Positions 23,983 to 43,789 of a DNA stretch of 64,000 nucleotides are shown here, piece by piece. The translations under genes and the position numbers were made by a program. Numbering within the stretch: the stretch's first letter is position 1; each line of letters begins with the position of its first letter. A model generated the notes under the pieces. It saw only the letters and a list, made by a program, of their open reading frames with translations, had not been told where the DNA came from and ran no database searches. The stretch comes from Escherichia phage CMSTMSU: sequence record MH494197.1; one strand, written 5' to 3'.

Positions 23983-25943
23983 ATGAGTATAAATCGAATT
24001 AGAGGTGATGGTGGTGTAATTATAGATAGTCAGGCATTTCTAGAATTACCTAAAGCACCGACTAAAGAAACCGCTGATGTGGTTAGATCAGGGATGATTA
24101 GATACAATAAAGGATGGAAAGCATTTGAAGGTGTACTAGACTTTGAAGATGGTTCAATGGCATATCGACGTTTTGCAAACCTAGATGCAAACGGTAAACT
24201 TCTTACTTCCCAATTACCAGATTCAGTAACTAGTGGTTTACAATTTGTTGGTACATATAATCCCATCCCAGATGATATCGATCCACCTTTAGCACAAACT
24301 CCACTACCAGCACCATCACCATCGCTTAATGGTGATTATTATGTCGTTCGTGGTATAATGGATGCCGCACAAGCACATTATGAAGCAAATAATCCACAAA
24401 CAAGTCCTGTTACATTTACACCTACAAATCCAACTGGACAAGGTAATTGGATTGAAATTTTATATTATGTTGACTCTAATCCAAATATATCTGGTGCTAA
24501 ACTAGTAACATACGCTTTTGCTAGAATTATTACTGCATCTATTCCCAGTACTGGACATGATGGCCTTGAAAATTTAGCAACAGATACTGACTTGACCAAA
24601 CCATTTGCATCTGGTGTTCCAATGAACCAAACTGCACTTTCAGATGGCGATTGGATTATTATAACTGAAGATAAGAATATACGTCTTCGTCAGTCAAGAA
24701 CAAGCATTTCCGCTGCTTCAGTATTATATGACAATACTGTAATGATTGCAAATCATCGTCAATTTAGAACAAACGCAGGGACCGTTCAAACATCCATAGA
24801 TAACGTTGTGATTGAGTGTTTACGTAGAACTGGCGATTCCATGTATAATGATGGAACAGACGGCTCTGGGCGTTTTGGGGTGGTGTATGGCAGTGCAGCA
24901 GCACCAGCATTGACATTTAATAATAATCCGTTTGACCCAACGAACAACCCGTAATGACCCAACTAAGTGGTCCGATGCTAATACTGGTATATTCCATCCA
25001 GCAGATGATGCAATTGGTTTTACAACAGCCGGAACTGAGCGTGTTCGAATTAATAATGGAACACTAACATTATTCCAAACTACCGCTACACCAGCAGCTA
25101 CGCCAGTAATACGTTTTGATAATGCATCAAACACAAACGTAGGGATAAGTGCAAGTAGTAATATTATTTCTTTAAGTTCAATGAATAAAATTCAAGTTGA
25201 ATTTAAAAATGGTGAATCACATTTTCATGGAAATATTATTGTAGATGGATCAACATCACTAACAGGTGATTTAAACGCAGGTAACATCACTGCCAGCGGA
25301 ATTTAGTTGTTAAAGGTAATACAACACTAGGCGACACTACTGGCGACACTATTACAGTTAATGGTGTTAGTACTTATAATGCAAATACTAATTTCAATGG
25401 AACTAATAACAAATTCAAAACATAAACTTACTAGAGAATGGTGTATTCACATTAGAAAGTACTACAAACCAAAGTGATATAAAACTACTTGGTGCAGACT
25501 TACGTTTCACTATGGGAAGTTATGCTGATGTAAGTATATATGATAACGGTGTTATTCGTACTCGTTTCAACCGATATGGTATTCAATTACCAGTACTGGC
25601 TACAATTGATAACTCAGTTGGTGTTGATGGTATGATTGCATACTCAAATACCGAACGTACATCGATGCAGAAGGTCCAAGGACAATGGGTTCCAATTGGT
25701 TCTGGTTCTGTACGTACTGACCCGTTTACTGCGTCAGCGTGGGTTTTAAACGGCTCATATTACACATTAACAGTAACTGCTAGTAACATAGTAACTGCTG
25801 AAATTCAAGAACTCGTAAGTACTGGTGTTTACACTCGTGTTGAAGTTGATAGTGTCACATTCAATGGAACAAGCGTAGTGTTCAGTATTCCTGCAACTCC
25901 TGATGTGAGATTTGCCGGACGTACACTGGTTACATTAAGATAA
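23983..25943 (+). CDS. fibre-like protein (frame-broken)
   Basis: ORFs 23983-24954, 24932-25306, 25512-25943 on the same strand; Thr/Asn/Gly-rich fibre-like composition (GIFHPADDAIGFTTAGTERVRINNGTL). Confidence 0.45.
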
Positions 25944-25945
25944 TA

Positions 25946-25975
25946 AAAAGGAGACTTATGTCTCCTTTTCTTTAT
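25946..25975. terminator. bidirectional terminator hairpin between convergent genes
   Basis: aaaaGGAGACttatGTCTCCtttt; sequence context very similar to the 5626 hairpin. Confidence 0.5.
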
Positions 25976-26962
25976 ACAGCCATTGGTGCTTTGATCGTTG
26001 GCATTGGATCGTAATTAACTAATTTGAAAGAATCCATAGTGAAATCTTCAATATCAGTAATAGTAGGATCTAACCATAATTCTGGTAATGTACGTGGTTC
26101 ACGTTGGAGTTGCTCTTTTACTTGTTCAATATGGTTTTGATAGATATGGCAGTCGCCACCATTCCAAATAAATTCACCAACATCTAACCCTGTAATTTGT
26201 GCAATCATATGAGTTAGTAGTGAGTAACTACTAATATTAAATGGCACACCAAGGAATAGATCAGCACTACGTTGATGAAGAATACAACTTAGTTTACCCT
26301 GTACAACACAAAACTGCACAAAGCTATGACAGGGTGGCAAAGTCATAGCATCAAGCTCACCAACGTTCCATGCACTTAGAATGTGACGACGACCATATGG
26401 ATCAGTATTGATACCTTCAATAACTTGTTTTAGCTGGTCAGTTACGACGCATAATAACACCATGTGAACCAGTATAATCAATAACTTTATACCCTTTATC
26501 TTTTAGTTCTTGAATTTCTTCAGTACTGGAACTGAATTTATAATCTTCCCATTCACGCCATTGTTTACCATAAACTGGGCCAAGCTCACCATCAGAATAC
26601 CCAAGGCTTACACCTTGATTAAGGTAGTTGTCTGTCCAAATTGTTTTCTTTTCTACATCACGTGTCCCGTGTAAAATTTCACACAGACGACGCTCATCGT
26701 GAGAACCTTCAATAAACCATAACAATTCTGAAGTCATTGCTTTCCAAGCTAAACGTTTAGTAGTTACTGCTGGGAAACCTTCTTTTAGGTCAAAACGCAT
26801 TTGTTGTCCGATTAGCTTGATAGTGCCAACACCAGTACGATCAACGCTTTCGACACCTTGATCCAGAATTCTTTGATATAGTTCTTGTAGTTGTTTCATT
26901 TTACGTCCTTGAAAAATGTAATAAAGTGTTCCATGTGTTTTGTGTAGCATTACGTGAACCAA
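25972..26962 (-). CDS. thyA: thymidylate synthase (one frameshift near 26440-26480)
   Basis: N-part [36 protein letters not shown] and C-part [42 protein letters not shown] in adjacent frames. Confidence 0.85.
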
Positions 26963-27493
26963 TCCCAGTCCAGTTACCGTGTGGTGCTGGTATTGAGAAT
27001 GTTTCAGTAAACTCTTTCAGTACTGTATCATAATAAAATACAGAGCGAGTGTTCATATCATAACAATATATTTCTGGATTGTCAACTGAATCCATATACA
27101 TCTGTACGGCCCATGCAGTTCCACCTGAAACTTGCGTAGGTGATGTAATATTTGCAATACAATATACTCTTTTGTATTAAGTATCTGGTAACTATTCCTT
27201 GCAAGTAAGTTATATACATACGAACCGCTTAGGAACTTTACGGCGTAAAGAGTAACATGCAATGTTTAATTGTTTTAATATTGAACTATCACAAAGGATA
27301 TTGGGTGGAATTTCTAATATAGTATTTTCATCTACGCTGCTTTGGTGACCCTTGAATGAAAAATTTATTACTTCAAATCCATTGTCTTTTGCATAGATAG
27401 AAAAAGGCGGTCAGCACCTGCTGCCCGCCACTGAAACATACATTAGATAAACCATTGATTGCTTCATCTAATTCTATTTTATTCATTTATATT

Positions 27494-28143
27494 ATTTTGC
27501 TTTACGTTCTGCAAATGCCTGTTTAACTTTCTCAATTGCTTTGGTTTGTGAAATTCCTTCTGGGATTTCAATATAGAAAGTTTTGCTATCAGGTGCTACA
27601 GGTGTTGCTTGAACTTGTGGACGTAGAGATGGTTCTAAGTTGTAAGCACGTTCAAAGTGCTCTTTAGCCAACTGCTCATAACGTTGTGCATCTTTAAGTA
27701 GTTGCTCAACAATGGTAGCTTCTTCAACAGAAGTATCAACTTCTTGTGGCTTGAATGGGTTGTATTCTTTAACTTTACCATCTTCATGTTTTTAGCATCA
27801 TTATCATTGATTGCGTTGTTTAGAACATCAAGAGAAATCTTACTGTTTCCACCAACATGCATATCAATATCACAAGTACGTGCACGACGCAAATGTTGTA
27901 GATTATGAAGAACATCTAGCATTTTGCGACCGTCTAGATGACCAATCTTATGCATAACTTCCCACAAATCTACATTCGATTGACCTTGATTCATTACTAA
28001 ATCTGCAACAGATTGAGCATATGCTTCAGGAAGTGAGTCGCGATAAACAATGAGACAATGTTCTGGATCATCAGGAGTGAACGCCATACCACAAATACTC
28101 GTGAACCCGTATTACGTACTACACCAACGTGACGAATAGCCAT
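27494..28143 (-). CDS. hypothetical protein (frame-broken)
   Basis: ATG at 28143 with RBS GGAG (MAIRHVGVV...), continuing into ORF 27635-28087; function not recognised. Confidence 0.3.
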
Positions 28144-28176
28144 TATTATTCTCCTTTATTTTGTTCAGCAGCAGCT

Positions 28177-28377
28177 TGTGCAGCATCAGCTTCTTCTTGT
28201 GCTTTGATATCTTCGAGTGCAGAGTTAGCAAACTCAACAAACTTAGATACGACTGGAGCAACATCAACAAGTTCTTCGACTTTAAATGAATTACGAGCCA
28301 CAGCAGCTTCCATGATTTTAGCAGCGTTGATTAGGTCGATTAGTGTTAGTTGAATTTTTCTGGTTCTTGTTCCATTT
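28177..28377 (-). CDS. small acidic helical protein (below ORF-track size cutoff)
   Basis: MEAAVARNSFKVEELVDVAPVVSKFVEFANSALEDIKAQEEADAAQAAAEQNKGE; the overlapping plus-strand ORF 28129-28353 is low-complexity Ser/Ala and looks antisense. Confidence 0.3.
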
Positions 28378-28410
28378 TAATACTCTCCATGTATGTTGTT
28401 ACAAATATAA

Positions 28411-28440
28411 TTATATCACCTTTTTCCAAGCTGTCCCGCT
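28411..28440 (-). promoter_or_regulatory. sigma70-like extended -10 promoter (TGATATAAT) with CGGGACA upstream element
   Basis: Reverse complement gCGGGACAgcttggaaaaaggTGATATAAT; same architecture at about 59374-59405. Confidence 0.35.
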
Positions 28441-28445
28441 GAAAA

Positions 28446-28475
28446 AGTAGAAACGGAATTTTCCGTTCTCATTAT
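28446..28475 (-). terminator. intrinsic terminator after the VWA-domain gene
   Basis: Minus-strand hairpin AACGGAaaatTCCGTT followed by TCTACTTTTTC. Confidence 0.45.
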
Positions 28476-29889
28476 TTAGTACTTAGCTACGTTGACGCTT
28501 TTGTCAGCTTCATATTCGTAGTGTACAGTTTCGCCAAATGGTGCTTGTTTGTTAGGATTGCTGTGGATAACAAACAGTGTCTTACAGTAATCAGGATCAC
28601 CCCATGACTGCCACGGCTCACCATCGGTAAACATAATAAGCTGTTTAGGCTTATAGTTGTCATGCTTCATATGAACCCATACTGCTTCAAAGTCAGTACC
28701 ACCACCACCTTTCACTGGATATTCGAGAATCTTACTCTCTTCACCAGTTTTGTAATCTTTCACAGTATAAACTTCAGTATCGAACGTCATGATACGGATT
28801 TTAAATTGTTTAAACTGCTTAGTGATACCCAGTACTTCACTGATGAAATCACGGAGCATATCTTCAGAGATAGAACCGGATGCATCTAGTGCAATTGCAA
28901 TATCAATATCATCATCTGGTTTCATACCGGGAAGATTGGATTCCCGTAGAATGAACCAGAACTACCAAAACCAGCACCCCATGAACGACGATTAGGATTT
29001 TGATAAGTTGCATCAGACTTCAACCAGCTACGCAGTGTGCGGTGAAGTTTAGAACGCCAGTCAATCTTAGGTTCTTTGAAGTTGTTAATCATACGTGCGA
29101 TTTCAGCAGGAGTACCACCTGCACGAGCAGCATTCATCATTGCTGTTTTGAAATCATCCATATAATCACGTTTTTGTTTCTCACTTGAACCACCCTCTTG
29201 ACCTTCTTGTGGAACGTCATGCTGGTCGATTGTTGTACCTTTGCCTTTACCATCTTTGATATCACCAAAAGTACCGCGTGATTTACCTTCACCCTCACCA
29301 CTACCAGCCTGTGGATTTCCTTCACCTTCTCCGTCTTGATCCTGCTTATCTTCTTCTTCGAGAATATTATAAATCTCTTCAGCAGTCATACCATCGTACT
29401 TTTTATCGTACAGCCATTGGCTTTGGATTTTACCAATTTTATCACGAACAAGAATCTGGTTAATTGCATAGTCAGCAGCACGGTTATAACGCTGCGGGTC
29501 ACGCATACCACGACGCAAGAAGTGGTCATATGCACAGTGAAGAATTTCATGACAAATAACTGCAATCAGGTTTTCATCAGTCAAACCTTCTGTCATTTCT
29601 TTAAGTTGTTCTTCAGTTACTTCAGGATGTTTCTCACGAATTGCTTCTTCGTATGCTGACTTTTGGATTGGTCCTGAATACCCATGATGAATTCTACGTT
29701 GTAGAATAAATGCTTACCATCTACAGCCAAAGTACGACACCATGTGTTGTTTGCAACTGGACGCAGACGAGAAGCCAGTACACCAAAGAATGGGAATGTT
29801 AGCATTAAAGATGTGCGAGCTAAGATCAGACGATCTTGACATTCTTTCTGGAGAGCCGGAGTAACATCACTGAAACGTTTATCTGACAT
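28476..29889 (-). CDS. VWA-domain protein with N-terminal HExxH metallopeptidase-like domain (DUF2201-type; frame-broken)
   Basis: HEILH in AVICHEILHCAYDHF (ORF 28922-29596); VWA-like DIDIAIALDASGS...TDG (ORF 28476-28925); N-terminal LTFPFFG segment (ORF 29617-29889). Confidence 0.65.
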
Positions 29890-29962
29890 TTGTATTTCCT
29901 CGTTTAGTTAAGATAAAGAAGGATACCATGTGGTATCCTCCTTGTCAACACTCTTTTAATTA

Positions 29963-31288
29963 TTAACCAAGAGAGCGTGCTTTACGTACTAGGTCAGAGT
30001 ACTTCATAACGAAGTCTTTAAACGCTGGTACATCTTTAATCGTAATCGCTACTTTATGAAGCGTGATGGTACGAATCGCCAGTACTGCCAGTTCTGCTTG
30101 AGTTGCAGAGAAGTTATGGTCTAGGAAGGTGATGAAGTTGTTGCACAGCTTACCCCAATCTTCCACTGGTAGACGTTGTTCTTGCTTCTCATTGTAGAGG
30201 TCGATAATTTTGTAAACCAGATTCAGAGTGATGAAGTAGTTCGCGGAAATATCGAGCGAAGCATCAATCTCTTTAATCTCACCCTGTAGGATGGACATGG
30301 TATCTGGTAGTTTAGCTACGTTATCAACATACTCGATGTATTCAGTTGCTACGCCTTCACCAACACGACCTGCAATCATCGCACGGAACACTTCTTTATC
30401 AATGTTCTTAACTTTCTTCAGATCTTCGTAGCGTGCTACTGCTTCCCATGAACGTGGAGAAGTACCACCACAGTGAGAAGGATCTTGTGGGCTAAGGGTG
30501 TTGAAGTGTTTAGCACCAGTGTTGTTGATGAACGCTACAGTTGCTGGGTTCAAACGCTTGCCAATCGCATAATCGTTAATCCAATCTTGATGATAAGGAA
30601 TCATTTCGATGTGGGTCATACGGTCACGCAGTGGTGTAGCTAGAGAGAACGTTACACCGCCATCAGTTTCACGGTTACCTGCTGCGAGAATCAGTGCAGT
30701 CTTAGGTAGCTTCATCTCACCAACACAACGGTCGAGGATTAGCTGATAAGACGCTGCCTGTACAATCGGCATTGCAGAGTTGATTTCGTCAAACAGAATA
30801 ACACCTTTCCAATCTGGAGACAGTTTCAGTACTTTAGGTGCTGCCCACACAACTGCTGTTTCAGCGATGTAATCTTGTGCACTAGCCAGTTCAGATTCAA
30901 TCAGTTGCTTACCATCCATATCAAGGAACACTTTCTCTGGAACTGGGATACCACGAAGGTCACTTGGTTCAATCTGAGACAAACGGAAATCGATAAAGTT
31001 AGTGTCTTGGTCGATTAGTTTGGCTTCAAACGCTGCCAGTTCACGGCGAAGTTGATCAGCATTTTCAGTATCAGCTTCGATTTGTTGTTTCATGAACTCA
31101 ATTTTGCCACGTTATCTTTACGCAGTGGGTAGTTCTCATCAGCGTATTGACGTGCGATAGCAGATTTACCGATACGGGCTACCCCAAATCATCAGGCTAT
31201 CTTGAATCATGTCAGCCAGTGCCATTGCTTCTTTAGCTTTCTTAGGAGTCAGTTTTACGTTCAGGATATCGTTGTTTTGAGTAGACAT
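29963..31288 (-). CDS. MoxR/CobS-like AAA+ ATPase (frameshift near N-terminus)
   Basis: Walker B VILFDEINSA, sensor-like ATPLRDRMTH in the 376-aa ORF; GKS-containing Walker A-like segment (IGKSAIARQYA) in a shifted frame upstream; ATG 31288 with RBS AAAGGAAA. Confidence 0.7.
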
Positions 31289-31455
31289 GTATATTTTCCT
31301 TTTGTTGGATAAAATCGTTTAGGTTTCTATTATAGCCAATCCGTGGGCAAAGTAAAGGAACTGTGTTAAAAGAATTTTAACTTATCAGTTCCTTTGTTAC
31401 TTCATGAATCATCCGTGTATTTAAAAGGCATTTCTCTTTGCCGTCTTGATGTGTC

Positions 31456-31483
31456 ATTATATCACATCGTTCAGGCTTGTCAA
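31456..31483 (-). promoter_or_regulatory. sigma70 consensus promoter TTGACA-N16-TGATATAAT (proximal of tandem pair)
   Basis: Reverse complement TTGACA agcctgaacgatgtga TATAAT. Confidence 0.5.
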
Positions 31484-31545
31484 CAACTTTTTTATTTCTT
31501 TTCAATCTCACATCTTGTGATTTTGAAAACTTGCTTCGTGGTGGT

Positions 31546-31574
31546 CATTATAACACATCATTCGGCGTTGTCAA
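31546..31574 (-). promoter_or_regulatory. sigma70 consensus promoter TTGACA-N16-TGTTATAAT (distal of tandem pair)
   Basis: Reverse complement TTGACA acgccgaatgatgtgt TATAAT; lies in the second of two ~53-nt direct repeats (31453-31505, 31543-31596). Confidence 0.5.
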
Positions 31575-31977
31575 CATCTTTTTCTTTATTTTCGAAGCTA
31601 CATGTGCATCGAAAATAACATTCTAAAATCATCACCACACAATGTTAACTCTGTAACTATCATTTGCGTCGAGAGGTATATGTACTGCCCTTCTACATAG
31701 TAGGGTGAAGTACATATCCTATCAAGCGATGTAAAGATTATAGAACTTTTGAACTCTCTTTGCAAGGGGATTTTTGTAAATTCGTAAAGAATGTTTTCTT
31801 TACAAATTGTATATCCAAACTTGCTAAGTCTTAAACCACCGCCAGTTCTGAAATTTTCAAAATTGACATCAGAAGCATACGGTCTGTTAATTCAGCGTCT
31901 GATCCATGTACTTCTCTAACTTTTAAAAGTACATCGTTTTGAAATTCAGTACTGTTGTGTGGTTCAGGAATCATAAA

Positions 31978-33351
31978 TTACATCCCCACGAAACCCTGTC
32001 TTGCTGCATATGAAGGAGCATCTTTAACTTTATAGTCTTGGACACCATCTTTACCAATTTTCGGACCCATATCTTTGGTTCCGAAGCAGCAATCAGTGGA
32101 TTCATCAACTTCTTCAGTACTTTCATCATTATATCGAACATCCGATAAAATGTCACACGCTTTTGAAGCTTTTCTACGATTTCTTTTGATCTTCACCTGA
32201 TTTAACCTTATCCACAATGTGGATAAGGCATTCGGTGATATCTTTAAGTAAATCGGTGGCAACAGCATCAGAAGGAGTCTCAACTGCAAAACTTTCTTCT
32301 TCAGTAGATTCTTCACTAGAAGTGATTTCATCTAATGCTTCAACCAATTCACGATAATTATATCCCATCTTATTTGTCCCTAGAAATTGTTGATATTTCT
32401 TCTGGAGACTTTCGAAAATGTCTTCGACTTCTTCATCGCTTTCATCTTCTAGTTCTTCGTTACCTTCCACGGACTCATCACTCTCATTAACATTGAGTGG
32501 GTTGTCACCTAGAGCAGTACACGGAAACTTAGGTTCAAATTTGTGAACACGGTTCTCGTTACCGTCATTGTCATAGTACTCTGGTTCAGGACGATTGTCA
32601 ACATCTTCATCAACGACACGTCTCCAGTAGAACTTGTTACCCTTGGTAATAACAACAAAGTGGTCACCTTCTACACCATTAGTTTTAGCTTGACCGTCAC
32701 GAACAGCATCAGCTTCAGTGTTGTAAGGGCCAAAATCAGTACTGTCACCTTGTTCTTCATCTTCAGAGATGGTTAGGTCTGGTAGGAAAGTGTTTTCTTC
32801 AACTTTAACTTCAGTATCTGGGTTACCTTCTACAGAATATTCATCTTCTGGTTCGTCTTGAAGACCAGCTAGAGATAGCATACGACTGAAATCGAATTCT
32901 TCTTCGATGATTTCTTCTTCTTCCTCTTCTTCAACTGATTCTAGTTGAGGTTGACCGGAAAGATCTAAAGAAAACTCTTCTTCATCTGCAACACGGCTCT
33001 TCGAACTCTGCATCCATACTTACTTCTTCAGAATCACCACCAAAATCACCAGCTTCAGCAGATAGTGAGTCAGCAGCAACTTCTAATGGGTCTTCAACAG
33101 GTGCATCAATTGCACCATCCATTGAACCACCAACTTCTTCTTCTGCACCAGCACCAATTGAATCCATATCGAGTGGTGCGATTGGTGTAGAAAGGGTCAT
33201 TGACCCATAGAAGGAACTGGAGCAGCAACAGGAGAAGCTTGACGCTCGGCTTGACCAGCTAGTGCAAGCATACGAGATAGTGTTTCTAGATCTTCAGATT
33301 CTAGTCCTGCGATATCGATTTTAACTTGTGCTTCATTAATTTTTTAGCCAT
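31978..33351 (-). CDS. large highly acidic (Glu/Asp-rich) protein, about 450 aa (frame-broken)
   Basis: ORFs 32982-33200, 32174-33013, 31978-32331 plus N-terminal piece from ATG 33351; runs such as EEEEEEEIIEEEFDF; an A6 run near 33340 breaks the start. Confidence 0.5.
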
Positions 33352-33474
33352 TTTAAATAAATCCTTTTAGTTATCAATCATTCTTATTTAATGATTTTAA
33401 AATTTGCACTGTTTCATCCTTTTTACCAGATAGTAAAATGTCAGCAGCAATTAGAGAAACCTCATCACCACGCG

Positions 33475-34880
33475 TTAAGAGTACTGTAATTTTCTTAGCG
33501 TAAGGTGATTCTTTAATTCGTGAAGCCAATGATTGAACTTCATCACCGGAGCAGGAACTTCAGGTTCTGGCTCTGATACAGGTTCTGGTTCTTTAGTAGG
33601 TTCAGCTTTTGGTTCAACTACATCAGTACTTGATACTTCAGCATCTACTTTATCTTCAGGTTCTTCTTCTTTCTTATCAGCACGTTCTGCATCATAACGA
33701 GCAAGAATGTCATCAGCAGTTGATTTTGGAATCAATTTACCATCAGCACTAATAAAGCGGTTACCACCGATATAAGAATACTCTGTGCCTTTCTTAGATT
33801 TTACTTTAGTTCCGATTTTCATTGCACCAGAACTATTATGGCGAATTATATCACGTTGAGCAGCACGTTCAACACTTTTGCAGCACTAGAATTTAGTTGT
33901 TTTTAGTTTCTACATCAAACCATGCATTTTTTGTTTAATGTATGTTTTACCTTTATTTGAAGTAATGCGGTAACCATGTGGAACCACAACAGATTCAGTT
34001 TCTTCAATCTCTTCATCTGCTTCATTAATGGATTCTTTTGTTGCGAATACTGGCTGTTTTACTGGTTGTTTAGGTTGTTCTGGCTTTTCACCTGAACCAA
34101 AACGTTGTTCACCTGATTCATGATCACCAGTTAGTGAAGGAAAATCACCGGGTTAGCCTTAACAAATTGTTGATATGCATTAAAGATTACATGTGCATTT
34201 TGTTCTGGAATTACAACATTACCATCATTATCACAAAATTCTTTACCATTCCATTCTGAACGAGTATTACCTTGTACTAATGTAGATTTAATTGGAATTA
34301 GTTTGTTTTTGGTGCTAATTGGCGAGCAATACGCATACCTTCATCGGAAAGTTTACGTGTCATTGCTGGGTCAACTGGACGTCCAGATTTTGCATCAACA
34401 AAACGGTGATTTTAGGGATGAATTTAAATCCACTAACTTCCATACCTGCTGGAATAGAAATATCATCAGCATATGGTGGAAGGATATAGAATTTTAGGGA
34501 GTTCCATTCTTTTGTAGAGTTTCTTTTGAAACATTATATACACGGTGGTCATCTGCCATTAGTTCAGTGATAATTTCACTTTCAGTTAGTAGAATTCCAT
34601 CTTTAGAATTGAAACGATTTTCACCAAGAAATGTACACTCTTTACCTTCAAGAATATATTTTTACCAATTTTATATTCACTAGAAGATAGATTGTGCTCA
34701 ACAATCTGTTGTCGAGCACTTGCGTACATGGATGGGTATTTTTAGGGTCTACCATTAACATATTATTGTCGTTAAACCAGAAACCTTCTAGAAATACATA
34801 TTTGCCACCAGTGTGAGAAGTATATACATATCCATTAGGTACTGTGGTAGTTTCAGTACTGAAAAAATTATCCATGTGTT
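33475..34880 (-). CDS. hypothetical protein with Glu/Pro/Lys-rich linker (frame-broken; limits uncertain)
   Basis: ORFs 34648-34917 and 33475-33822 plus in-phase unlisted segments between them. Confidence 0.3.
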
Positions 34881-35079
34881 GATTCTCCTTAAGAAAGCAT
34901 ACGCAAAAGTTGTTCACGCTGCTCTGGACTTAATTTTTGTAGAGCATCAGGATACTAGAACCTTGTGCTTTTGGCTGTTCCTGTGGTGCTGGTTGTGGAG
35001 CATTGTCAGGTTGAGCTTGTGGTGCAGGACGTTGTTGTTCTTCACCTTTATCATCATCACGATAATCATTCATCAAGTC

Positions 35080-35431
35080 ACGTGCTGCTGCCAATAGAGC
35101 AGAACCAACATCTTTAGGAGTAAAAGTACGACGACTGTTATTTCCCGTGTTTTATATCAAGGTTATTTCCTTTGAAGAATTGTGCAACATCAGCATATGG
35201 TACTGATGGCTGTGCTTTACCGTATTTGCGACCAACATAGCGTTTAAATTCAGCCCAAAGACGGTTTGCTTCTGCACCAACTTCTTGTGCACCTTGTTCT
35301 ACTTGACCACTACCGAAAAAGCCTTTTACTTTTCCTTTTGCACTATCTACTGCACTTTGTGAACGACTATATGGACGAGCTTCATTTAGCTCTTCATCAT
35401 TATAGTCTAACATTTCATTAAGTATACTCAT
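35080..35431 (-). CDS. hypothetical protein (Gln/Pro-rich C-terminus)
   Basis: ORF 35138-35431, likely extended by a frameshift. Confidence 0.3.
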
Positions 35432-35960
35432 GTCTCAATCCTTTTACCAAAACCAGCACTCATATATTGAGAGTATTTATTGTCACTTTTAACTGCTTCA
35501 ATCGCATCTTTAACTGCGGTTACAGCACGTTCTTCACCAGCTAAATCATGGCTGTCTTCTGGTTTGCCAAAATCAACACCAATTACTGGTTCGTAATCGT
35601 CAAAGTCAATATCATCTTCGAGTTCGGTCATTTCTTGTTGACGTGGTTCATCTTTACTACGTACACGGATTAGAGCTTCAGTCATACTTAGTAGGTTGCC
35701 AATTTCATACATTAGTACGTTTGATTGAACACCACGGTGGCATTTGAAATCAAACATCCAAATTTCACCACAATCTAATTCATAAAAATCTAGTGGTCTT
35801 TCCATGAAAATAGTTTTCTTTAGTGCACCAATATCAAATGCATCATAACGATCCATTAGGCGTTGTGATACTTTACTTAGTTGCTCATTGGTAGGTTCAA
35901 CTGCAAACTTGACTCGGTATTCAAAACTGGTTTTTATCCGTTAGGATTTGTTGTAATCTA
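35428..35960 (-). CDS. hypothetical protein
   Basis: ORF 35428-35856 with upstream in-phase extension. Confidence 0.35.
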
Positions 35961-35989
35961 TTCATTTTAATAACTCCATAAGGTCGTTT

Positions 35990-36530
35990 AAGTTATTTAT
36001 TTCTGTTCATTGCTGCAAGCATTTCATTGCAGGTTTTATGTGCTACCGCCTGTCCTTCGATGGCTGTTGGGTCACCAACTGATTCAGGTTTCTTAGTTTT
36101 AAGGTTTAGATCGATTTCCATCTTATCTTTCTTGAGTTGAAGATCTACTAATTTAACGTCAGAATCAATGATTTTTGCATGAGCATCGAGAGCAATTTTA
36201 ACATAGAGTTTGCAGCGTTAATCATTTCTGCTGCAAAACGGTCTTCACAGTTGAAAGCACGGTCGAAAATATCTTCAAACTTACGTTCTGCCATCTGTGC
36301 TAAACGATCTAATTGAGTTTTTCTTGCTGTAATATCTGGAAGTTCACGCAACTGAACACGCATAGCTTTCAATTTTTCCATTGCAGCTTTTGCCTCTTCT
36401 AGTGAAATTTCAGTTTCACTCTGTTCATCTTCGTCATCCTGATACAAATCCATCTCTGTATCTTCTTCAGGCTCGGCCTGTCATTTCCATCCATTGTTTA
36501 GCACTAGGTAATCCCAGTGCTTCATCTACT
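35990..36530 (-). CDS. hypothetical acidic coiled-coil-like protein (scaffold-like?)
   Basis: ORF 36148-36453 plus flanking frames; charged helical sequence EEAKAAMEKLKAMRVQLRELPD. Confidence 0.3.
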
Positions 36531-36539
36531 TGTTGTTTA

Positions 36540-37004
<465 letters not shown>

Positions 37005-38094
37005 TTAAAAATCTCCTAATATGTTGCCTAATCCGAATTTTGAGCTTGCAGAAGAAACGATGCTTCCTAAACCAATAGCATTTGCACCTCTTGTCACTGC
37101 GGAACCTATGTTTCGGATGGTATCAGGAGTAATGTCACCACGAAGGATATCACCAGCACTACTGATTATATCACTAACTGATGTTCCTGCTCGGATAATT
37201 TTACCAACTGTCGAAATTCCTTTAGTTTTGTCATCAAGTTCACCAAAGTACTTAAAGAATCCACTCACACCAAGACCTTCAGTATCGGTGATGAGTTGTG
37301 CAATTTCCATTGTAGGGACACCAATACTCAAGTACCCTTCAGGACCAAAGTTGTTACACGCTTCATAACGCATAGTCAAAGATAATAGTGCTGGGTCACC
37401 TTCACTTTCCATAGATTTAGTTTCTAATTGTATATCTTCGATGAATACATTTATCATGTTATGAACTGTATAGGTTTCATTATCAATTTCATAGATATTA
37501 ATTGATTTGAAAAGTACTGGTTGTCGTAGTTACCATTGTTCATTACAGAACGACCCCAGTTTCCACCTAAACCATTGAAATTTTCTGGTGTACTGAGTAC
37601 GTCATTTCGGTAAGATTGTGGGTTCTTGTCAAAGAAGTCACCATAGTAGAACTTACGATATGCGTCCATTAAAAGATATCCAGCACCATCGACGGTATCA
37701 TAGAAAACAACATTACTGGGTTTATAAACAATATCACCAGTAACTAAACGTTTTTGTTGTATTGGTTTACGGTTTCAACACTGAAAGAAAAGCTAGGAAG
37801 TGTTACGTCTTTTACAAAGCACGATACATTATTAACATCAAAATCAGTATGTGTATCTGGGAGTTGAGTTTTAATAAAGTTCTTTGCGAACGGGTTAGTA
37901 CAAATTCGATAATAAAACTGTTCTTAAATTTTGGTAAATTATAGAATGAAAAACCCATTTCACCTGCTGTACCAAACACTCGTTGTGCAGCGTTATAATT
38001 TTCAAAAGCTGGATCTCTAATGATGTTGATATTGTCAATAACACCATTAACTATACTAGTTCCAGTACTGACAAATGAATCAAAAAATCACTCA
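37005..38094 (-). CDS. hypothetical tail/baseplate structural protein (frame-broken)
   Basis: ATG 38094 with RBS AAGGAG; ORFs 37454-37669 and 37005-37457 in phase after indels; sits between the tube genes and head-side genes. Confidence 0.4.
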
Positions 38095-38106
38095 TGGGTT
38101 ATCTCC

Positions 38107-38883
38107 TTATAATCCAATGCTACCGAAAACACGGTCAATGATATCTAATCCTTGGTTTACGTTTTCAGGTAAAAGTGAATTTATTCTAGTACTGTACATT
38201 TCTTCGATATTATCGAATTGGATACAATTATCAGGTTTTATTGTAATAACCATTTCAACAGGAGAACTTGAACTATAGTCAAGTGAATCATATGATATAT
38301 TTTGTATAACACATCCTGTTAGTACAAAGTACTCCATAACGCCAGCACTATTGTATGATGATCCACCAATGAACTGATCAACAGCGTTGACTAATCCAGT
38401 ATTGTTGGTAGCGGCAGTTGTTGCATTAACTAATGTGTTTCTTCCCAAGTCTTCTAGTGTATCATCAGAGTTGCGACCATTCAACATCTGAATGACAATT
38501 CCGAACTTATATGAACCATAATCATGGTCAGTTCTGGAAGTAATTCTTCGTTGAAAATCTAATTGTTTCTGTAATTGTCTTGACAAGGCTTTTGCTGATG
38601 CATTACCAACTGAATCACGGATAGTTAAAGTAATTGGGTCCCAATCGTGACTACCAATGTAAGATGTATTTGTTGTAAATTGATATAGTTTATGAGTACT
38701 GAAAGTAACAGTAGGTCTATCAACTTTATCAACATCTAATGCAATGTGATCACGCTCATCTATATCAGTACCGAAATTATATACAATAACACGAAATTTG
38801 TATTTTGCTTTCGGTTGTAACATTGAACGGTTACGTCCTGATGGTAGAGGAACGCCATATTTATTAATCATGTTATTTGCCAT
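38107..38883 (-). CDS. tail tube-like protein (gp19-like), 258 aa
   Basis: Directly downstream of sheath gene; N-terminus KAKYKFRVIVYNFG; C-terminal segment DSLDYSSSSPVEMVITIKPDN resembles the T4 tube C-terminus as I recall it; RBS AAAGAGG. Confidence 0.5.
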   Translation of the reverse strand: MANNMINKYGVPLPSGRNRSMLQPKAKYKFRVIVYNFGTDIDERDHIALDVDKVDRPTVTFSTHKLYQFTTNTSYIGSHDWDPITLTIRDSVGNASAKALSRQLQKQLDFQRRITSRTDHDYGSYKFGIVIQMLNGRNSDDTLEDLGRNTLVNATTAATNNTGLVNAVDQFIGGSSYNSAGVMEYFVLTGCVIQNISYDSLDYSSSSPVEMVITIKPDNCIQFDNIEEMYSTRINSLLPENVNQGLDIIDRVFGSIGL

Positions 38884-38905
38884 AGCAACCTCTTTTATTT
38901 TATAA

Positions 38906-38925
38906 GGTATTATACTTTATTTAGC
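38906..38925 (-). promoter_or_regulatory. late-promoter-like motif GCTAAATAAAGTATAATACC
   Basis: Same core as the fibre-gene motifs; 23-43 nt upstream of ATG 38883. Confidence 0.4.
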
Positions 38926-38955
38926 ATAAAAAGCCCCGAACTAGTTCGAGGCTTA
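38924..38955 (-). terminator. intrinsic terminator between the two tube paralogs
   Basis: Minus-strand hairpin AAGCCTCGAACtagTTCGGGGCTT followed by TTTTATG. Confidence 0.5.
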
Positions 38956-38970
38956 CGTTTAAAAGAAAAA

Positions 38971-39655
38971 TTAATTTTCGTAGAAGTTACTATCTGGTAG
39001 AGTAGTACTACTAATGTTGGTTTGTGCACCACTAATAGAGGTAGCAGTGGATGGGTTACCGAAACCAGTAATTTCATCACCGAACGCTTCACCATTAGGA
39101 CCGAGTTTTGCACAGCCGTCTGGTTGAATTGTCATAGAAATAACTTGTGCTTCACTTGAGGAATAATCCCAGTCACCAAAGTTACTAGATTCGATAAAGC
39201 AGCCTTGACATACCCAAGTACTCAAAGTACCTTCAAAAGGTTAGAAGTGTTTTCACTATTGGAGCCATCTAGCTCTTGAATCCACATTTCAAATTTGAAC
39301 TGGGAATCAGTCATACGAGATTCTTGACTGTAATAGTTAAATTCTTTACGCATTTGGTTATAAAGAGCTTTAGCAGAAGCATTACCAACTGAATCACGGA
39401 AAGCCACATCAATAGTATCCCAAGTATACTTACCTTTATAGTGAGCAGAACTGTTATAACTATGCACAGTGACGTTTTCATGTGATACAGATACAGCACC
39501 AACGGTGTTGGTATCTAGGTAATCATATTGCCATCGTCGTTAGCACCGAAGCCAAAGAAAACAACACGGAATTTATATTTTGCTTTAGGTTGTTTCATAG
39601 AGATACGACCACCGCCAGCGAGCGGAACGCCATATCGATCAAGCATTGTAGCCAT
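38971..39655 (-). CDS. tail tube-like paralog (frame-broken)
   Basis: N-terminus MATMLDRYGVPLAGGGRISMKQPKAKYKFRVV and internal RDSVGNASAKAL both match the 38107-38883 protein; RBS CAGGAGAA. Confidence 0.5.
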
Positions 39656-39997
39656 TTATATTCTCCTGTTATGGAATGACATCTTTATATTATTTATCTA
39701 TTACTTACACTTTTATTGAAGTATCTCATCAACAGGAAACCAATCTATATTCACACAATACAAGTACTTTTTCTTGTTTATGATCTGTATAGTTTACACC
39801 AACCGACCATTTACCATTTGTGTAAACATTGTATTCTCGAATTATACCGACAATGTTCCAAATTTTGTATAAAAGCTTTAAGGATTTTACGGCATCGTCC
39901 TGTGTCGCTACAGTTTTACTTACATCTTGTAATGTTTTTAAGTATTTCTTCCATATTATTCCTGATCGTTGAATTAATAACATAACGTATTTAATTT

Positions 39998-40027: not shown

Positions 40028-40033
40028 AGTGTT

Positions 40034-43778: not shown

Positions 43779-43789
43779 TCCGATAATCA

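What the first reader, a model, noticed from the sequence alone, without database searches (positions are those of the whole stretch)
31978..33351. About 450-aa extremely acidic protein between the MoxR operon and the head/tail genes
Long Glu/Asp runs and very low predicted pI. Such proteins in phages are prohead core/internal proteins or DNA-mimic inhibitors of host nucleic-acid-binding defences. Nothing in the sequence decides between them.
Basis: inference. Interest (0 to 1): 0.45.

Follow-up and report, generated by a model that had tools for sequence, protein, structure and literature searches.

The report
Two acidic phage virion proteins
The "450-aa acidic protein" is two neighbouring, already catalogued virion-protein genes of a 121Q/RaK2-like jumbo coliphage, scrambled here by nanopore sequencing errors; their sequence motifs suggest proteins packed inside the capsid and trimmed by the T4-type head protease, not a DNA mimic.

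Summary
No intact ~458-aa ORF exists at 31978..33351 (minus strand). The acidic reading changes frame about six times.

The window matches the unpolished MinION draft of Escherichia phage CMSTMSU. It has no CCWGG site in 64 kb (about 49 expected), its indels are almost all 1-2-base deletions in homopolymers or at Dcm sites, and 42 of 48 neighbouring genes are frame-broken.

In every relative the interval holds two tandem genes: a 329-aa protein (28% Asp+Glu, net -73; 121Q gp560 / RaK2 gp050 / CBB_213 / phAPEC6 gp267c) and a 130-aa partner (net -18; gp561 / gp051 / CBB_214). So the acidity is real and the single protein is not.

Published mass spectrometry finds the orthologues in virions of RaK2, CBB and phAPEC6. 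Both families start with a conserved L/I-x-E-(A/S) motif, the T4 gp21 protease site. In these phages that motif is otherwise almost confined to the major capsid, scaffold and core proteins beside the protease gene. The large protein is mostly disordered, with one small folded domain.

Best reading: capsid-internal or core proteins processed by the head protease (about 0.55). A DNA mimic is not supported. The exact role remains unknown. Interest is low to moderate.

The parts
32370..33351 (-). Gene A: orthologue of the 329-aa acidic 'virion structural protein' (121Q gp560, RaK2 gp050, CBB_213, phAPEC6 gp267c; phrog_15988). In the window it is broken by deletions near 33345 (A7->A6), 33203 (G4->G3), 33196-33187, 32994 (CCTGG->CC--G) and 32380 (G4->G3). 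The last deletion puts the true TAA (32372-32370) out of frame.
31978..32368 (-). Gene B: orthologue of the 130-aa acidic partner (121Q gp561, RaK2 gp051, CBB_214; phrog_14971). It is broken by A5->A4 deletions at 32187 and 32164. The model shows three helices, an acidic linker and a conserved C-terminal motif G-M-x-P...Y...S-Y-A-A-R-x-G-F-V-G.
32174..33013 (-). Artefactual 279-aa ORF. It fuses the C-terminal about 210 residues of gene A to the first about 60 residues of gene B through the G4->G3 error at 32380. It is deposited as a CMSTMSU protein.
33305..33351 (-). N terminus of gene A, M-A-K-K-I-N-E|A-Q-V-K. It has hydrophobic-N-E-A with N6, E7 and A8 invariant in 70 relatives, and fits the T4 gp21 protease motif L/I-x-E.
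33245..33304 (-). Conserved N-terminal helix L-E-S-E-D-L-E-T-L-S-R-M-L-A-L-A-G-Q-A-E (73-100% identical from coliphages to Klebsiella phages; about 60% in Xanthomonas and Vibrio phages). A second copy of the R-M-L-x-L-A-G motif lies at 32896..32858.
32612..32734 (-). The only confidently folded part of gene A (pLDDT > 90): a strand-helix-strand-strand domain of about 45 residues, G-P-Y-x-T-E-x-x-A...T-N-G-x-E-G-D-H-F-V-V-I...F-Y-W-R-R. It is present in 2-3 tandem copies in longer relatives. No structural or sequence analogue was found.
32378..32428 (-). Conserved C-terminal helix V-E-D-I-F-E|S-L-Q-K-K-Y-Q-Q-F-L-G, holding a second almost invariant I-x-E-S motif (E317, 69 of 70 relatives).
32327..32368 (-). 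N terminus of gene B, M-G-Y-N-Y-R-E-L-V-E|A. L8 and E10 sit at the positions that determine processing in the 10-residue T4 capsid targeting sequence.
33374..34875 (-). Context: upstream 503-aa virion protein gene (phAPEC6 gp268c, RaK2 gp049), broken by 10 single-base deletions in the window. A TAAATA-type late-promoter-like element lies in its last codons (about 33395..33382), at the position where the CBB paper predicts a late promoter for CBB_213.
31598..31974 (-). Context: conserved 125-aa gene of unknown function (phrog_15638), the last gene before the MoxR unit. It is also frame-broken.
31456..31574 (-). Context: two tandem perfect sigma-70 promoters (TTGACA, 16 bases, TG-x-TATAAT) ahead of the true start of the MoxR-type ATPase gene at 31288. 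The MoxR/vWA-peptidase pair therefore looks like its own transcription unit, separate from the acidic pair.

Best explanation
The interval holds two separate, probably translationally coupled late genes of an Asteriusvirus (121Q/RaK2-like jumbo myovirus). They look like one long broken acidic reading only because the window is an unpolished nanopore consensus.

Gene A (329 aa) is a polyanionic, largely disordered protein. It is built of short conserved motifs, one small folded domain and acidic linkers. Gene B (130 aa) is a small acidic helical protein with a conserved C-terminal peptide. Both are components of the virion.

Most likely mechanism (inferred, not shown): they are built into the prohead core in the way T4 internal and core proteins are, and are cut by the phage's T4 gp21-type protease at conserved L/I-x-E|(A/S) sites. 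In gene A these sites lie after residue 7, near residue 189, after residue 317 and, in most lineages, after the second LAG motif. In gene B the site lies after residue 10. The processed forms would stay inside the filled head as acidic internal proteins.

What they do there is unknown. Candidate roles are a remnant of the assembly core, a DNA-excluding spacer or inner body, or proteins ejected into the host.
For: Shown here:
- Two genes, not one, in all relatives, always adjacent. In one distant contig the small partner gene is absent.
- The frame breaks are homopolymer and Dcm-site errors.
- Full-length matches to phrog_15988 (8e-124) and phrog_14971 (1.5e-44), both 'virion structural protein'.

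From papers:
- Orthologues were detected in purified virions of three genera (PMC7247149; PMC5259590; PMC3622015).
- T4 gp21 cuts after L/I-x-E. The first 10 residues of IPIII target it to the head, with processing set by residues 8 and 10 (PMC9026906).

Inferred from tests here:
- The pattern ^M.{1,9}[LI].E[AS] is present in gene A and gene B and their RaK2 and CBB orthologues. It occurs in 62/70 relatives of gene A, and hydrophobic-x-E at that column in 70/70. It occurs in 38/47 relatives of gene B.
- It occurs in only 1 of 46 other CDS around gene A.
- In the head modules of CBB and phAPEC6 it is found only in the major capsid protein, the scaffold, the acidic core protein and a 75-aa protein. 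These are the four genes flanking the S77 protease, and 0 of 38 other CDS have it.
- T4 controls gp22, gp24 and gp67 hit.
- In gene A the motif instances fall in 3-4 conserved columns at the borders of conserved blocks.
- In the stored CBB peptide table, peptides spanning predicted cut sites are never seen: INEASVR, FLNESSLSDEAK, LLQEAIQ... and the three tryptic peptides searched within the first 60 residues of the major capsid protein. The next peptides downstream are seen 3-14 times.
- N-terminal and domain peptides of CBB_213 partly separate into different gel slices: N-terminal only in slices 02 and 05, domain only in 12 and 13.
- phAPEC6 heads contain an inner body whose proteins are unidentified.
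Against: - No experiment places these proteins in the head rather than the neck or tail. The genes sit next to tail-tube and head-completion genes, about 60 kb from the capsid module.
- Peptide counts are low (1-5). Low counts are expected for proteins with few Lys/Arg, but they do not show abundance.
- L/I-x-E-(A/S) is a short motif, expected by chance about 2% of the time per N terminus, and more often in Glu-rich sequence.
- A missing peptide is weak evidence, and the stored supplementary file may be truncated.
- There is no detectable homology to T4 gp22, gp67 or gp68 (hhalign probability < 1%) or to phiKZ internal proteins (below the Pfam cut-off, 2 of 47 members).
- T4 internal proteins are basic, and these are strongly acidic.
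- The protease gene itself is outside the window.
Confidence: 0.55

Rival explanations
1. They are virion or assembly proteins that work outside the capsid interior. For example, they could be neck, tail or head-completion components. They could also be disordered acidic adaptors or clients of the adjacent MoxR-type ATPase and vWA-metallopeptidase chaperone pair, which would process them during virion assembly.
For: - The gene order is conserved down to relatives only 27-31% identical to the query: gp13-like, sheath, tube-like genes, gp4-like head completion, 4-5 small virion proteins, acidic protein, partner, a protein of about 120 aa, ATPase, DUF2201_N/DUF2201.
- Iyer et al. 2021 propose that this MoxR-vWA-peptidase pair acts in virion assembly and processing (PMC7824862).
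- The phAPEC6 ATPase gp265c was itself found in virions with 6 peptides.
- vWA MIDAS sites bind acidic ligands (general knowledge).
Against: - The ATPase gene has its own pair of perfect sigma-70 promoters after a 300-bp gap, so it is a different transcription unit and probably a different time class.
- This reading does not explain why both proteins share the N-terminal motif with the capsid, scaffold and core proteins.
- No test of any interaction was possible.
Confidence: 0.27
2. They are a DNA-mimic or polyanionic decoy that blocks host DNA-binding defences such as restriction enzymes or nucleoid proteins. It would act either in the cytoplasm or as a protein injected together with the DNA.
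For: - Extreme, conserved negative charge.
- Packaged proteins of T4 (IPI*, Alt) are injected and act on host functions (PMC9026906), so an injected decoy cannot be excluded.
Against: - Known DNA mimics such as Ocr, ArdA and Arn are compact folds with ordered carboxylate arrays and are made early (general knowledge).
- Gene A is predicted to be mostly disordered (mean pLDDT 59.6, only about 45 residues well folded).
- It lies in a block of structural genes with a predicted late promoter in CBB.
- It is found in virions.
- It has no fold or sequence match to any mimic.
- Its most conserved parts are uncharged helices and motifs, not the acidic runs, which vary in length and sequence.
Confidence: 0.08
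3. The broken frames are real. Either this is a decaying pseudogene in this phage, or a single fusion protein of about 458 aa is made by programmed frameshifting, as in tail-chaperone G/GT genes.
For: - The window as given needs about six frame changes.
- A one-base deletion at 32380 happens to fuse the two genes in frame.
Against: - The same type of indel hits 42 of 48 neighbouring genes, including sheath and ATPase.
- All indels sit in homopolymers or at Dcm sites, and CCWGG is absent from the whole window.
- The published method was unpolished MinION sequencing.
- Nine phages 97.7-99.1% identical in DNA over this region carry both genes intact at the protein level, 98.8-100% identical for gene A and 100% for gene B.
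- The frame offset between the two genes is +1 in Asteriusvirus (TAAGATG) but -1 in RaK2 and CBB, where the genes share one base (apparently TAATG). No conserved slippery arrangement exists.
Confidence: 0.02

Closest known systems
RaK2-like jumbo phage 'virion structural proteins': 121Q gp560/gp561, RaK2 gp050/gp051, CBB_213/214, GAP32_207/208, phAPEC6 gp267c/gp266c (phrog_15988 and phrog_14971)
   Same: These are direct orthologues. Nine Asteriusvirus genomes are 97.7-99.1% identical in DNA. The proteins are 35-77% identical across genera for gene A and about 32-71% for gene B. Gene order is the same, and the pair is always two genes.
   Different: Nothing biological differs. The window copy is only a frame-shifted draft. 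The family has no assigned function beyond detection in virions by mass spectrometry.
T4 internal proteins IPI, IPII, IPIII and Alt, with their N-terminal capsid targeting sequence cut by gp21
   Same: - A short N-terminal stretch ends in L/I-x-E just before Ala or Ser. In gene B the Leu and Glu are at positions 8 and 10, as in the T4 targeting sequence.
- The proteins are retained in mature virions.
- The phage has a gp21-family (Peptidase_S77) protease.
   Different: - There is no sequence homology.
- T4 internal proteins are small and basic, while these are strongly acidic and gene A is long and disordered.
- Targeting and cleavage are inferred here, not shown.
T4 prohead core proteins gp22, gp67 and gp68, and their RaK2-like counterparts (CBB_254/256, phAPEC6 gp226c/gp228c)
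   Same: - Acidic composition (phAPEC6 gp228c is 31% D+E).
- Several L/I-x-E sites.
- The only hhalign alignment to gp22 is the 9-residue L-D-S-I-F-E-S-V-N against V-E-D-I-F-E-S-L-Q, which overlaps a predicted cut site.
   Different: - hhalign probabilities are below 1%, so they are not homologues.
- The genes lie about 60 kb from the head module.
- Peptides from both ends of gene A persist in virions, unlike a fully degraded scaffold.
phiKZ, 201phi2-1 and SPN3US inner-body or ejection proteins (Pfam PF12699 phiKZ_IP)
   Same: They are internal head proteins of jumbo phages, processed after Glu by a gp21-related protease. phAPEC6, a close relative of this phage, also shows an inner body in bubblegrams.
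   Different: The Pfam match is below the cut-off (18.6 bits against 27) and is seen in only 2 of 47 family members, so it is treated as chance. The phAPEC6 authors found no phiKZ inner-body homologues.
Phage DNA mimics (T7 Ocr, ArdA, T4 Arn)
   Same: Very low pI and a high density of Asp and Glu.
   Different: Mimics are compact, folded, made early and not virion components (general knowledge). Gene A is mostly disordered, lies in a structural gene block and is packaged.

Membership tests
phrog_15988 / 121Q gp560-type virion structural protein (gene A) | Full-length sequence match to the family profile | tested here: met
   The corrected protein (Turkey3 copy, 99% identical DNA) matches positions 1-317 of 317 with E = 8e-124. 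95 relatives were found by the word-indexed search and 87 by the exhaustive HMM search.
phrog_15988 / 121Q gp560-type virion structural protein (gene A) | Conserved position between the ~500-aa (~200-aa in distant relatives) virion protein upstream and the small acidic partner, upstream of the ATPase and vWA-peptidase genes | tested here: met
   The same order is found in vB_Ec-M-J, 121Q, Turkey3, phAPEC6, RaK2, CBB and five metagenomic contigs (the partner gene is missing in one of them).
phrog_15988 / 121Q gp560-type virion structural protein (gene A) | Physical presence in purified virions | not testable with these tools
   This is shown only for orthologues in the literature: CBB_213 with 5 peptides, RaK2 gp050 with 1, phAPEC6 gp267c with 1.
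phrog_14971 / 121Q gp561-type virion structural protein (gene B) | Full-length sequence match and conserved C-terminal S-Y-x-x-x-x-G-F-x-G motif | tested here: met
   E = 1.5e-44 over positions 2-134 of 134. P103, Y113, S120, Y121, G126, F127 and G129 are invariant in the 16-sequence alignment. In the 47-sequence alignment, F127 and G129 are invariant and P103, Y113, S120 and G126 are at 90% or more.
Substrates of the T4 gp21-type (Peptidase_S77) prohead protease, or proteins bearing a capsid targeting sequence | L/I-x-E cleavage motif close to the N terminus | tested here: met
   The N termini read MAKKINE|A and MGYNYRELVE|A. The motif is conserved in 62/70 and 38/47 relatives. The background is 1 of 46 plus 0 of 38 other CDS. 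T4 gp22, gp24 and gp67 serve as positive controls.
Substrates of the T4 gp21-type (Peptidase_S77) prohead protease, or proteins bearing a capsid targeting sequence | A gp21-family protease encoded by the same phage | tested here: met
   The protease is annotated in relatives: CBB_255 (PF03420 Peptidase_S77) and phAPEC6 gp227c. It lies outside this window, so it was not checked in this genome itself.
Substrates of the T4 gp21-type (Peptidase_S77) prohead protease, or proteins bearing a capsid targeting sequence | Demonstrated cleavage at the motif in mature virions | tested here: inconclusive
   In the stored CBB peptide table, the peptide across the site (INEASVR) is never seen, while the next two peptides are each seen 6 times. 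The same pattern holds for the scaffold, core and major capsid proteins. Absence of a peptide, in a search that returned only fully tryptic peptides for these proteins and in a file that may be truncated, is not proof.
Substrates of the T4 gp21-type (Peptidase_S77) prohead protease, or proteins bearing a capsid targeting sequence | Location inside the head | not testable with these tools
   No head-versus-tail proteomics or structural model was found for this phage group in the literature searches made.
T4 scaffold and core proteins gp22, gp67 and gp68 (homology) | Detectable sequence or profile similarity | tested here: not met
   hhalign probabilities were 0.5%, 0.3% and 0.1% for gene A, and 0.4% for gene B against gp67.
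phiKZ-like internal head proteins (PF12699) | Score above the Pfam gathering cut-off, shared across the family | tested here: not met
   The score was 18.6 bits against a cut-off of 27. Only 2 of 47 gene B relatives give any match, and gene A gives none.
DNA-mimic proteins (Ocr, ArdA or Arn type) | Compact fold displaying carboxylates in a DNA-like array | tested here: not met
   The AlphaFold2 model of gene A has mean pLDDT 59.6 and pTM 0.26, with 128 residues below 50 and only residues 209-250 well folded. Gene B forms three helices plus a tail with pTM 0.35. No fold matches were found.
DNA-mimic proteins (Ocr, ArdA or Arn type) | Early expression and absence from the virion | tested here: not met
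   The orthologues are found in virions. The genes end a block of structural genes, and a late promoter is predicted upstream of CBB_213. Timing was not measured.
Programmed-frameshift fusion (lambda G/GT type) | Conserved frame relation and slippery site at the junction of the two ORFs | tested here: not met
   The offset is +1 with TAAGATG in Asteriusvirus, but -1 with a one-base overlap (apparently TAATG) in RaK2 and CBB. The fusion in the window is a G4->G3 error.

The most novel reading that the evidence does not exclude
Gene A and gene B would be a previously unrecognised class of polyanionic, largely disordered internal head proteins. They would be targeted to the prohead by a short T4-like N-terminal signal and cut into fragments by the head protease. 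They would then form all or part of the so far unidentified 91 x 18 nm inner body seen in phAPEC6, as a DNA-repelling axial spacer that organises a 350-kb spool and primes ejection. Alternatively, they would be co-injected as polyanionic decoys against host DNA-binding defences.
Probability: 0.2. Interest if true: 0.5.

Novelty: new member of a known kind. Interest (0 to 1): 0.25.

Why it matters
There are three practical points.

1. This window, and the public CMSTMSU record behind it, is an unpolished nanopore consensus. Any ORF-level finding in it needs correction against relatives. Chimeric proteins such as the 279-aa ORF are already in public protein and structure sets.

2. The acidic pair is a conserved, unexplained virion component of the whole RaK2/121Q/CBB group of jumbo phages. 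The N-terminal protease-site signature found here gives a cheap, testable way to sort the many 'virion structural proteins' of these phages into head-internal proteins and the rest.

3. If the pair is head-internal, it becomes a candidate for the unidentified inner body of these phages. That would be an unusual case of strongly acidic protein packed next to DNA.

None of this changes a major question in the field, and the gene family itself is already catalogued.

Tried and rejected
- **Single 458-aa ORF.** Rejected: no such ORF exists, and relatives have two genes.
- **Real pseudogene or programmed frameshift.** Rejected on the window-wide error pattern and the non-conserved frame offset.
- **Pfam.** No family for gene A in any of 70 relatives. 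For gene B there were only sub-threshold phiKZ_IP and saposin matches in 2-4 of 47 relatives.
- **PDB sequence profiles.** Nothing for gene A. Gene B matched only designed helical bundles and FliS at E > 1e-4. For the small domain, the only matches were a chance 'G-x-E-G-D-N-F' motif in cAMP-binding domains at E > 1.
- **Fold searches.** The gene A model against PDB and BFVD, and the gene B model against PDB, returned only the family's own members and no analogue.
- **Homology to T4 gp22, gp67 and gp68 by hhalign.** None.
- **The N-terminal 38 residues as a signal shared by several proteins of the phage.** tblastn finds it once per genome in all but one record (72 records, 73 places), so it is not a repeated targeting module at that level of similarity.
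- **Longer relatives (395-456 aa) as natural fusions of the two genes.** They are not. They carry extra copies of the small domain.
- **'Hairy whisker' fibres of CBB and phAPEC6.** Not pursued. The same genes are present in RaK2 and GAP32, and the CBB authors expected whisker genes to be absent from GAP32, if it lacks whiskers.
- **Literature searches** for functional or structural work on these proteins or an identified inner body in this phage group found nothing. The phiKZ proteolysis paper was not available.
Full report
**1. The observation**

On the minus strand of 31978..33351 there is no open reading frame of about 450 codons. The frame opened by the ATG at 33351 stops after 16 codons. 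The acidic reading then continues in other frames as fragments: 33271..33197, 33200..32982 (72 aa), 33013..32174 (279 aa) and 32331..31978 (117 aa). Followed by eye, the path through the three frames runs 0, 2, 1, 2, then 2, 1, 0.

The end points are nonetheless real gene boundaries, and the encoded sequence is truly very acidic.

**2. Why the frames are broken**

The region is 99.1% identical to Escherichia phage Turkey3 and 98.8% identical to vB_Ec-M-J, both in genus Asteriusvirus, the 121Q/PBECO4 group of RaK2-like jumbo myoviruses.

Base-by-base alignment shows where the window lacks bases:
- single bases in A7, G4, A5 and T5 runs;
- bases at CCTGG and CCAGG sites.

Over 41.8 kb aligned to Turkey3:
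- there are 121 cleanly flanked indels, and 120 of them are deletions in the window;
- 91 lie in homopolymers of three or more bases and 23 lie at CCWGG;
- none of the 31 CCWGG sites of Turkey3 is intact in the window, against 90-97% of four control pentamers and 10 of 14 GGWCC sites;
- 42 of 48 annotated Turkey3 genes carry at least one frame-breaking indel in the window.

The whole 64-kb window contains no CCWGG at all, where 48.6 +/- 6.6 are expected.

The artefactual 279-aa ORF is identical to a protein deposited for 'UNVERIFIED_ORG Escherichia phage CMSTMSU' on a 386,442-bp contig. The genome announcement for that phage describes MinION R9.4 reads, Albacore 2.1.3 and a Canu assembly, with no polishing (PMC6256653). 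Loss of bases in homopolymers and miscalls at Dcm-methylated CCWGG are the known systematic errors of that chemistry (general knowledge).

The breaks are therefore artefacts. They are not pseudogenisation and not recoding.

**3. What is really encoded**

In all relatives the interval holds two genes:
- 329 or 326 codons: EcMJ_292, 121Q gp560, phAPEC6 gp267c, RaK2 gp050, CBB_213;
- 130 or 131 codons: EcMJ_293, 121Q gp561, phAPEC6 gp266c, RaK2 gp051, CBB_214.

They are separated by TAA plus one base in Asteriusvirus. In RaK2 and CBB the annotated coordinates overlap by one base, consistent with TAATG.

In window coordinates gene A is 33351..32370 and gene B is 32368..31978. A G4->G3 error at 32380 fuses them in the window.

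The frame offset between the genes differs between genera (+1 against -1). A conserved programmed frameshift is therefore excluded, and the tight spacing suggests translational coupling.

The corrected products have these properties:

| Product | Length | D+E | Net charge | Rank among 48 neighbouring CDS |
|---|---|---|---|---|
| Gene A | 329 aa | 28% | -73 | most acidic |
| Gene B | 130 aa | 25% | -18 | fourth most acidic |

The acidity is conserved in all 70 aligned relatives of gene A.

**4. Anatomy of gene A**

An alignment of 70 relatives shows strongly conserved blocks separated by variable acidic linkers:
- residues 1-36, with N6, E7 and A8 invariant, then the helix L-E-S-x-D-L-E-T-L-S-R-M-L-A-L-A-G-Q-A-E;
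- 60-70;
- 92-107;
- 154-168, a second F-D-x-x-R-M-x-S-L-A-G motif;
- 190-202 (L-L-P-D-L-S-L-D-E-D);
- 209-250;
- 256-290 (P-E-P-E...N-S-R-H...P-G-T-A-L-G-D-N-P-L);
- 310-328.

AlphaFold2 with this alignment gives mean pLDDT 59.6 and pTM 0.26. Only one small strand-helix-strand-strand domain (residues 209-250) exceeds pLDDT 90. There are short helices at 19-38, 90-100, 158-164 and 312-327, and the rest is disordered.

Longer relatives (395-456 aa) are not fusions with gene B. They carry two or three tandem copies of the small domain.

The N-terminal 38 residues stay 73-100% identical from coliphages to Klebsiella, and about 60% in Xanthomonas and Vibrio phages, although the whole proteins are only 35-40% identical. 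They occur once per genome in all but one record.

An exhaustive HMM search of 1.84 billion representatives finds 87 proteins, none of which could be linked to a characterised family. In some larger metagenomic proteins the N-terminal module is internal.

**5. Anatomy of gene B**

Across 47 relatives, gene B shows three helices (5-21, 34-56, 61-83), an acidic linker and a conserved C-terminal peptide G-M-x-P-x-x-D-x-x-G-x-x-x-Y...S-Y-A-A-R-x-G-F-V-G. The model has mean pLDDT 72.5.

**6. No match to known families or folds**

No Pfam family, PDB sequence relative or fold analogue was found for either protein. The weak phiKZ_IP match of gene B is below the Pfam cut-off, occurs in only 2 of 47 relatives, and is treated as chance.

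**7. Evidence already in the literature**

| Phage | Orthologue of gene A | Orthologue of gene B | Source |
|---|---|---|---|
| phAPEC6 | gp267c: 1 peptide, 4.9% coverage | gp266c: not detected | PMC7247149, |
| CBB | CBB_213: 5 peptides, 18.9% | CBB_214: 1 peptide, 15.4% | PMC5259590, |
| RaK2 | gp050: 1 peptide, 5.3% | gp051: 2 peptides, 18.7% | PMC3622015, |

In phAPEC6, neighbours gp268c and gp270c and the MoxR ATPase gp265c were also detected in virions.

Low peptide counts are expected, because most of each protein yields huge acidic tryptic fragments.

The raw CBB peptide table shows which parts of CBB_213 were seen in virions:
- residues 12-27 and 28-38, the N-terminal helix;
- residues 207-217, 218-232 and 233-239, the folded domain.

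The N-terminal peptides occur alone in gel slices 02 and 05. The domain peptides occur alone in slices 12 and 13. Both occur in slices 09 and 11.

The CBB authors predict a late promoter upstream of CBB_213. The window has a similar TAAATA element at the same distance upstream of gene A.

phAPEC6 heads show a 91 x 18 nm inner body in bubblegrams, and its proteins are not identified.

**8. A test that bears on location**

T4 gp21 cuts its substrates after Glu in the short motif L/I-x-E. The 10-residue capsid targeting sequence of IPIII is processed through its residues 8 and 10 (PMC9026906).

Gene A begins M-A-K-K-I-N-E|A. Gene B begins M-G-Y-N-Y-R-E-L-V-E|A, with Leu at position 8 and Glu at position 10.

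I searched N termini for the pattern ^M.{1,9}[LI].E[AS], with these results:
- **Turkey3:** among 48 CDS around the finding it hits gene A, gene B and one other.
- **RaK2 and CBB:** among 13 CDS in each orthologous stretch it hits only the two orthologues.
- **CBB head module:** it hits only CBB_253, CBB_254 (acidic core-like), CBB_256 (scaffold) and CBB_257 (major capsid protein), with 0 of 22 others.
- **phAPEC6 head module:** it hits only gp225c, gp226c, gp228c and gp229c, with 0 of 16 others. In both phages these are the four genes flanking the Peptidase_S77 protease.
- **T4 control:** it hits gp22, gp24 and gp67, plus one small hypothetical protein.
- **Within the families:** the motif is kept in 62 of 70 relatives of gene A, and 70 of 70 if Val, Met or Phe is allowed at P3. 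It is kept in 38 of 47 relatives of gene B.

Within gene A, the [LI]-x-E-[AS] instances average 3.3 per protein and concentrate in a few columns at the borders of conserved blocks:

| Column | [LI]-x-E-[AS] | Note |
|---|---|---|
| E7 | 63 of 70 | near the N terminus |
| after the second L-A-G | 52 of 70 | an Asp in this lineage |
| E189 | 28 of 70 | 65 of 70 with a wider P3 |
| E317 | 69 of 70 | in the C-terminal helix |

The only hhalign alignment to T4 gp22 is nine residues long. It pairs L-D-S-I-F-E-S-V-N with V-E-D-I-F-E-S-L-Q, which overlaps the E317 site.

In the stored CBB peptide table, peptides spanning the predicted sites are never seen. These are INEASVR in CBB_213, FLNESSLSDEAK in the scaffold, LLQEAIQAFANGDNEVADK in the core protein and the three tryptic peptides searched within the first 60 residues of the major capsid protein. 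The next peptides downstream are seen 3 to 14 times.

**9. Most likely mechanism**

- **Shown:** there are two genes. They are orthologues of proteins found in virions. They are extremely acidic, and gene A is predicted to be largely disordered.
- **Inferred:** both are substrates of the T4-type prohead protease. On T4 and phiKZ precedent, such substrates are built into the prohead core and so end up inside the head. Their N-terminal stretches would act like capsid targeting sequences. Gene A would be cut into an N-terminal acidic fragment and a fragment carrying the folded domain, which fits the partial separation of its peptides on the CBB gel. The processed forms would remain in the mature head.
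- **Unknown:** what they do there.

I put this reading at about 0.55.

**10. Rivals**

- **(a) A virion or assembly role outside the capsid, possibly as clients of the neighbouring MoxR-type ATPase and vWA-metallopeptidase (0.27).**
  - The neighbourhood is conserved down to relatives only 27-31% identical to the query, and Iyer et al. propose an assembly and processing role for that pair.
  - However, the ATPase gene starts at 31288 behind two perfect sigma-70 promoters at 31574-31547 and 31483-31456, so it is a separate and probably earlier transcription unit.
  - This reading also does not explain the shared head-protein motif.
- **(b) A DNA mimic or decoy (0.08).**
  - The charge fits, and injected T4 proteins act on the host.
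  - However, there is no compact fold. The proteins are packaged. The acidic runs are the least conserved parts.
- **(c) Real frameshifts or a programmed fusion (0.02).** This is excluded as set out in sections 2 and 3.

**11. Comparison with what is known, and novelty**

The proteins are members of phrog_15988 and phrog_14971, the RaK2-like 'virion structural proteins'. That family is catalogued and has no assigned function.

They work like, but are not homologues of, T4 internal and core proteins. hhalign was negative and the charge is opposite to that of IPI-III. They are not members of the phiKZ internal protein family.

I found no publication assigning them a location or role.

The object itself is therefore known. 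The protease-site signature and the head-internal inference are new but modest, so I rate this a new member of a known kind.

**12. Verdict**

- Interest is 0.25.
- The most novel reading not excluded is that this pair forms the unidentified inner body, or is an injected polyanionic decoy. I give it probability about 0.2 and interest 0.5 if true.

Noticed in passing
window 1..64000: The window contains no CCWGG site at all (48.6 +/- 6.6 expected). All 31 CCWGG sites of the close relative Turkey3 are miscalled, and 42 of 48 neighbouring genes are frame-broken by 1-2-base deletions. This is the signature of an unpolished MinION assembly of Dcm-methylated DNA (Escherichia phage CMSTMSU, MH494197). 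Every ORF-level finding in this window needs correction against relatives.
   Followed up: yes
window 31456..31574 (-) and 31288: Two tandem perfect sigma-70 promoters (TTGACA, 16 bases, TG-x-TATAAT) sit 91 bases apart in the 300-bp gap upstream of the MoxR-type ATPase gene. The true start of that gene is 31288. The 376-aa ORF listed at 29963..31093 is truncated by errors at 31175 (a CCTGG site) and 31105 (an A5 run). The ATPase and vWA-peptidase pair therefore looks like an early or middle unit inside a block of late structural genes.
   Followed up: partly
L014 22230..26491 (CBB) and L015 1123..5393 (phAPEC6): In both phages the four genes flanking the Peptidase_S77 prohead protease share an N-terminal M-x(1-9)-[LI]-x-E-[AS] motif that none of the other 38 genes in those stretches has. 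The four are the major capsid protein, the scaffold, a core-like protein with 31% D+E in phAPEC6 gp228c, and a 75-aa protein. This could serve as a simple marker for protease substrates in RaK2-like phages.
   Followed up: partly
window 32174..33013 (-): The chimeric 279-aa ORF created by sequencing errors is present as a real entry in public protein collections (P0006, NCBI) and in the BFVD predicted-structure library (A0A2Z5HH14, 95% identity to the model).
   Followed up: partly
window 33374..34875 (-): The upstream 503-aa virion protein gene (phAPEC6 gp268c, RaK2 gp049) carries 10 single-base deletions here. Its corrected product has repeated 'V-P-N-G-Y-x-Y-T-S-x-x-G-x-x-Y' hairpin-like motifs and a Pro/Glu-rich linker. 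Its function is unknown.
   Followed up: no
proteins P0021, P0050, P0051, P0059, P0061, P0062, P0064 (relatives of gene A): Longer relatives (395-456 aa) carry two or three tandem copies of the small G-P-F...D-G-Y-Y-W-R domain. The same domain also occurs in unrelated large virion proteins of Atu_ph07/Phosso-type phages (P0162, phrog_14154) and in P0179.
   Followed up: partly
proteins P0144, P0145, P0147, P0148, P0150, P0155, P0159, P0160, P0168, P0175: In metagenomic phage proteins, the conserved N-terminal module of gene A is internal. The module comprises K-I-N-E-A-Q, the G-L-E-x-x-D-A-E-T-L-S-Q-M-L-S-L-A-G-Q-A-E helix, an acidic region and a second L-R-I-A-G motif. It is usually preceded by a domain of about 75-150 residues (over 300 in P0144). 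In six of the ten (P0145, P0155, P0159, P0160, P0168, P0175) it is followed by a conserved basic C-terminal domain (E-T-A-K-x-M-Y-A-K-K...L-D-R-R-Y). The L/I-N-E-A motif is kept at the junction, as expected if it is a cleavage site.
   Followed up: no
L004 8274..9599 (phAPEC6 gp265c); window about 29963..31288 (-): The MoxR-type ATPase next to the acidic pair was itself detected in purified phAPEC6 virions (6 peptides, 19% coverage, PMC7247149). That is unexpected for an assembly chaperone.
   Followed up: no
L013 7324.. (T4 gene 24) against window 33351..33334: T4 vertex protein gp24 starts M-A-K-I-N-E-L-L-R-E|S, and gene A starts M-A-K-K-I-N-E|A. The resemblance is too short to test, but both fit the gp21 site pattern.
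   Followed up: no
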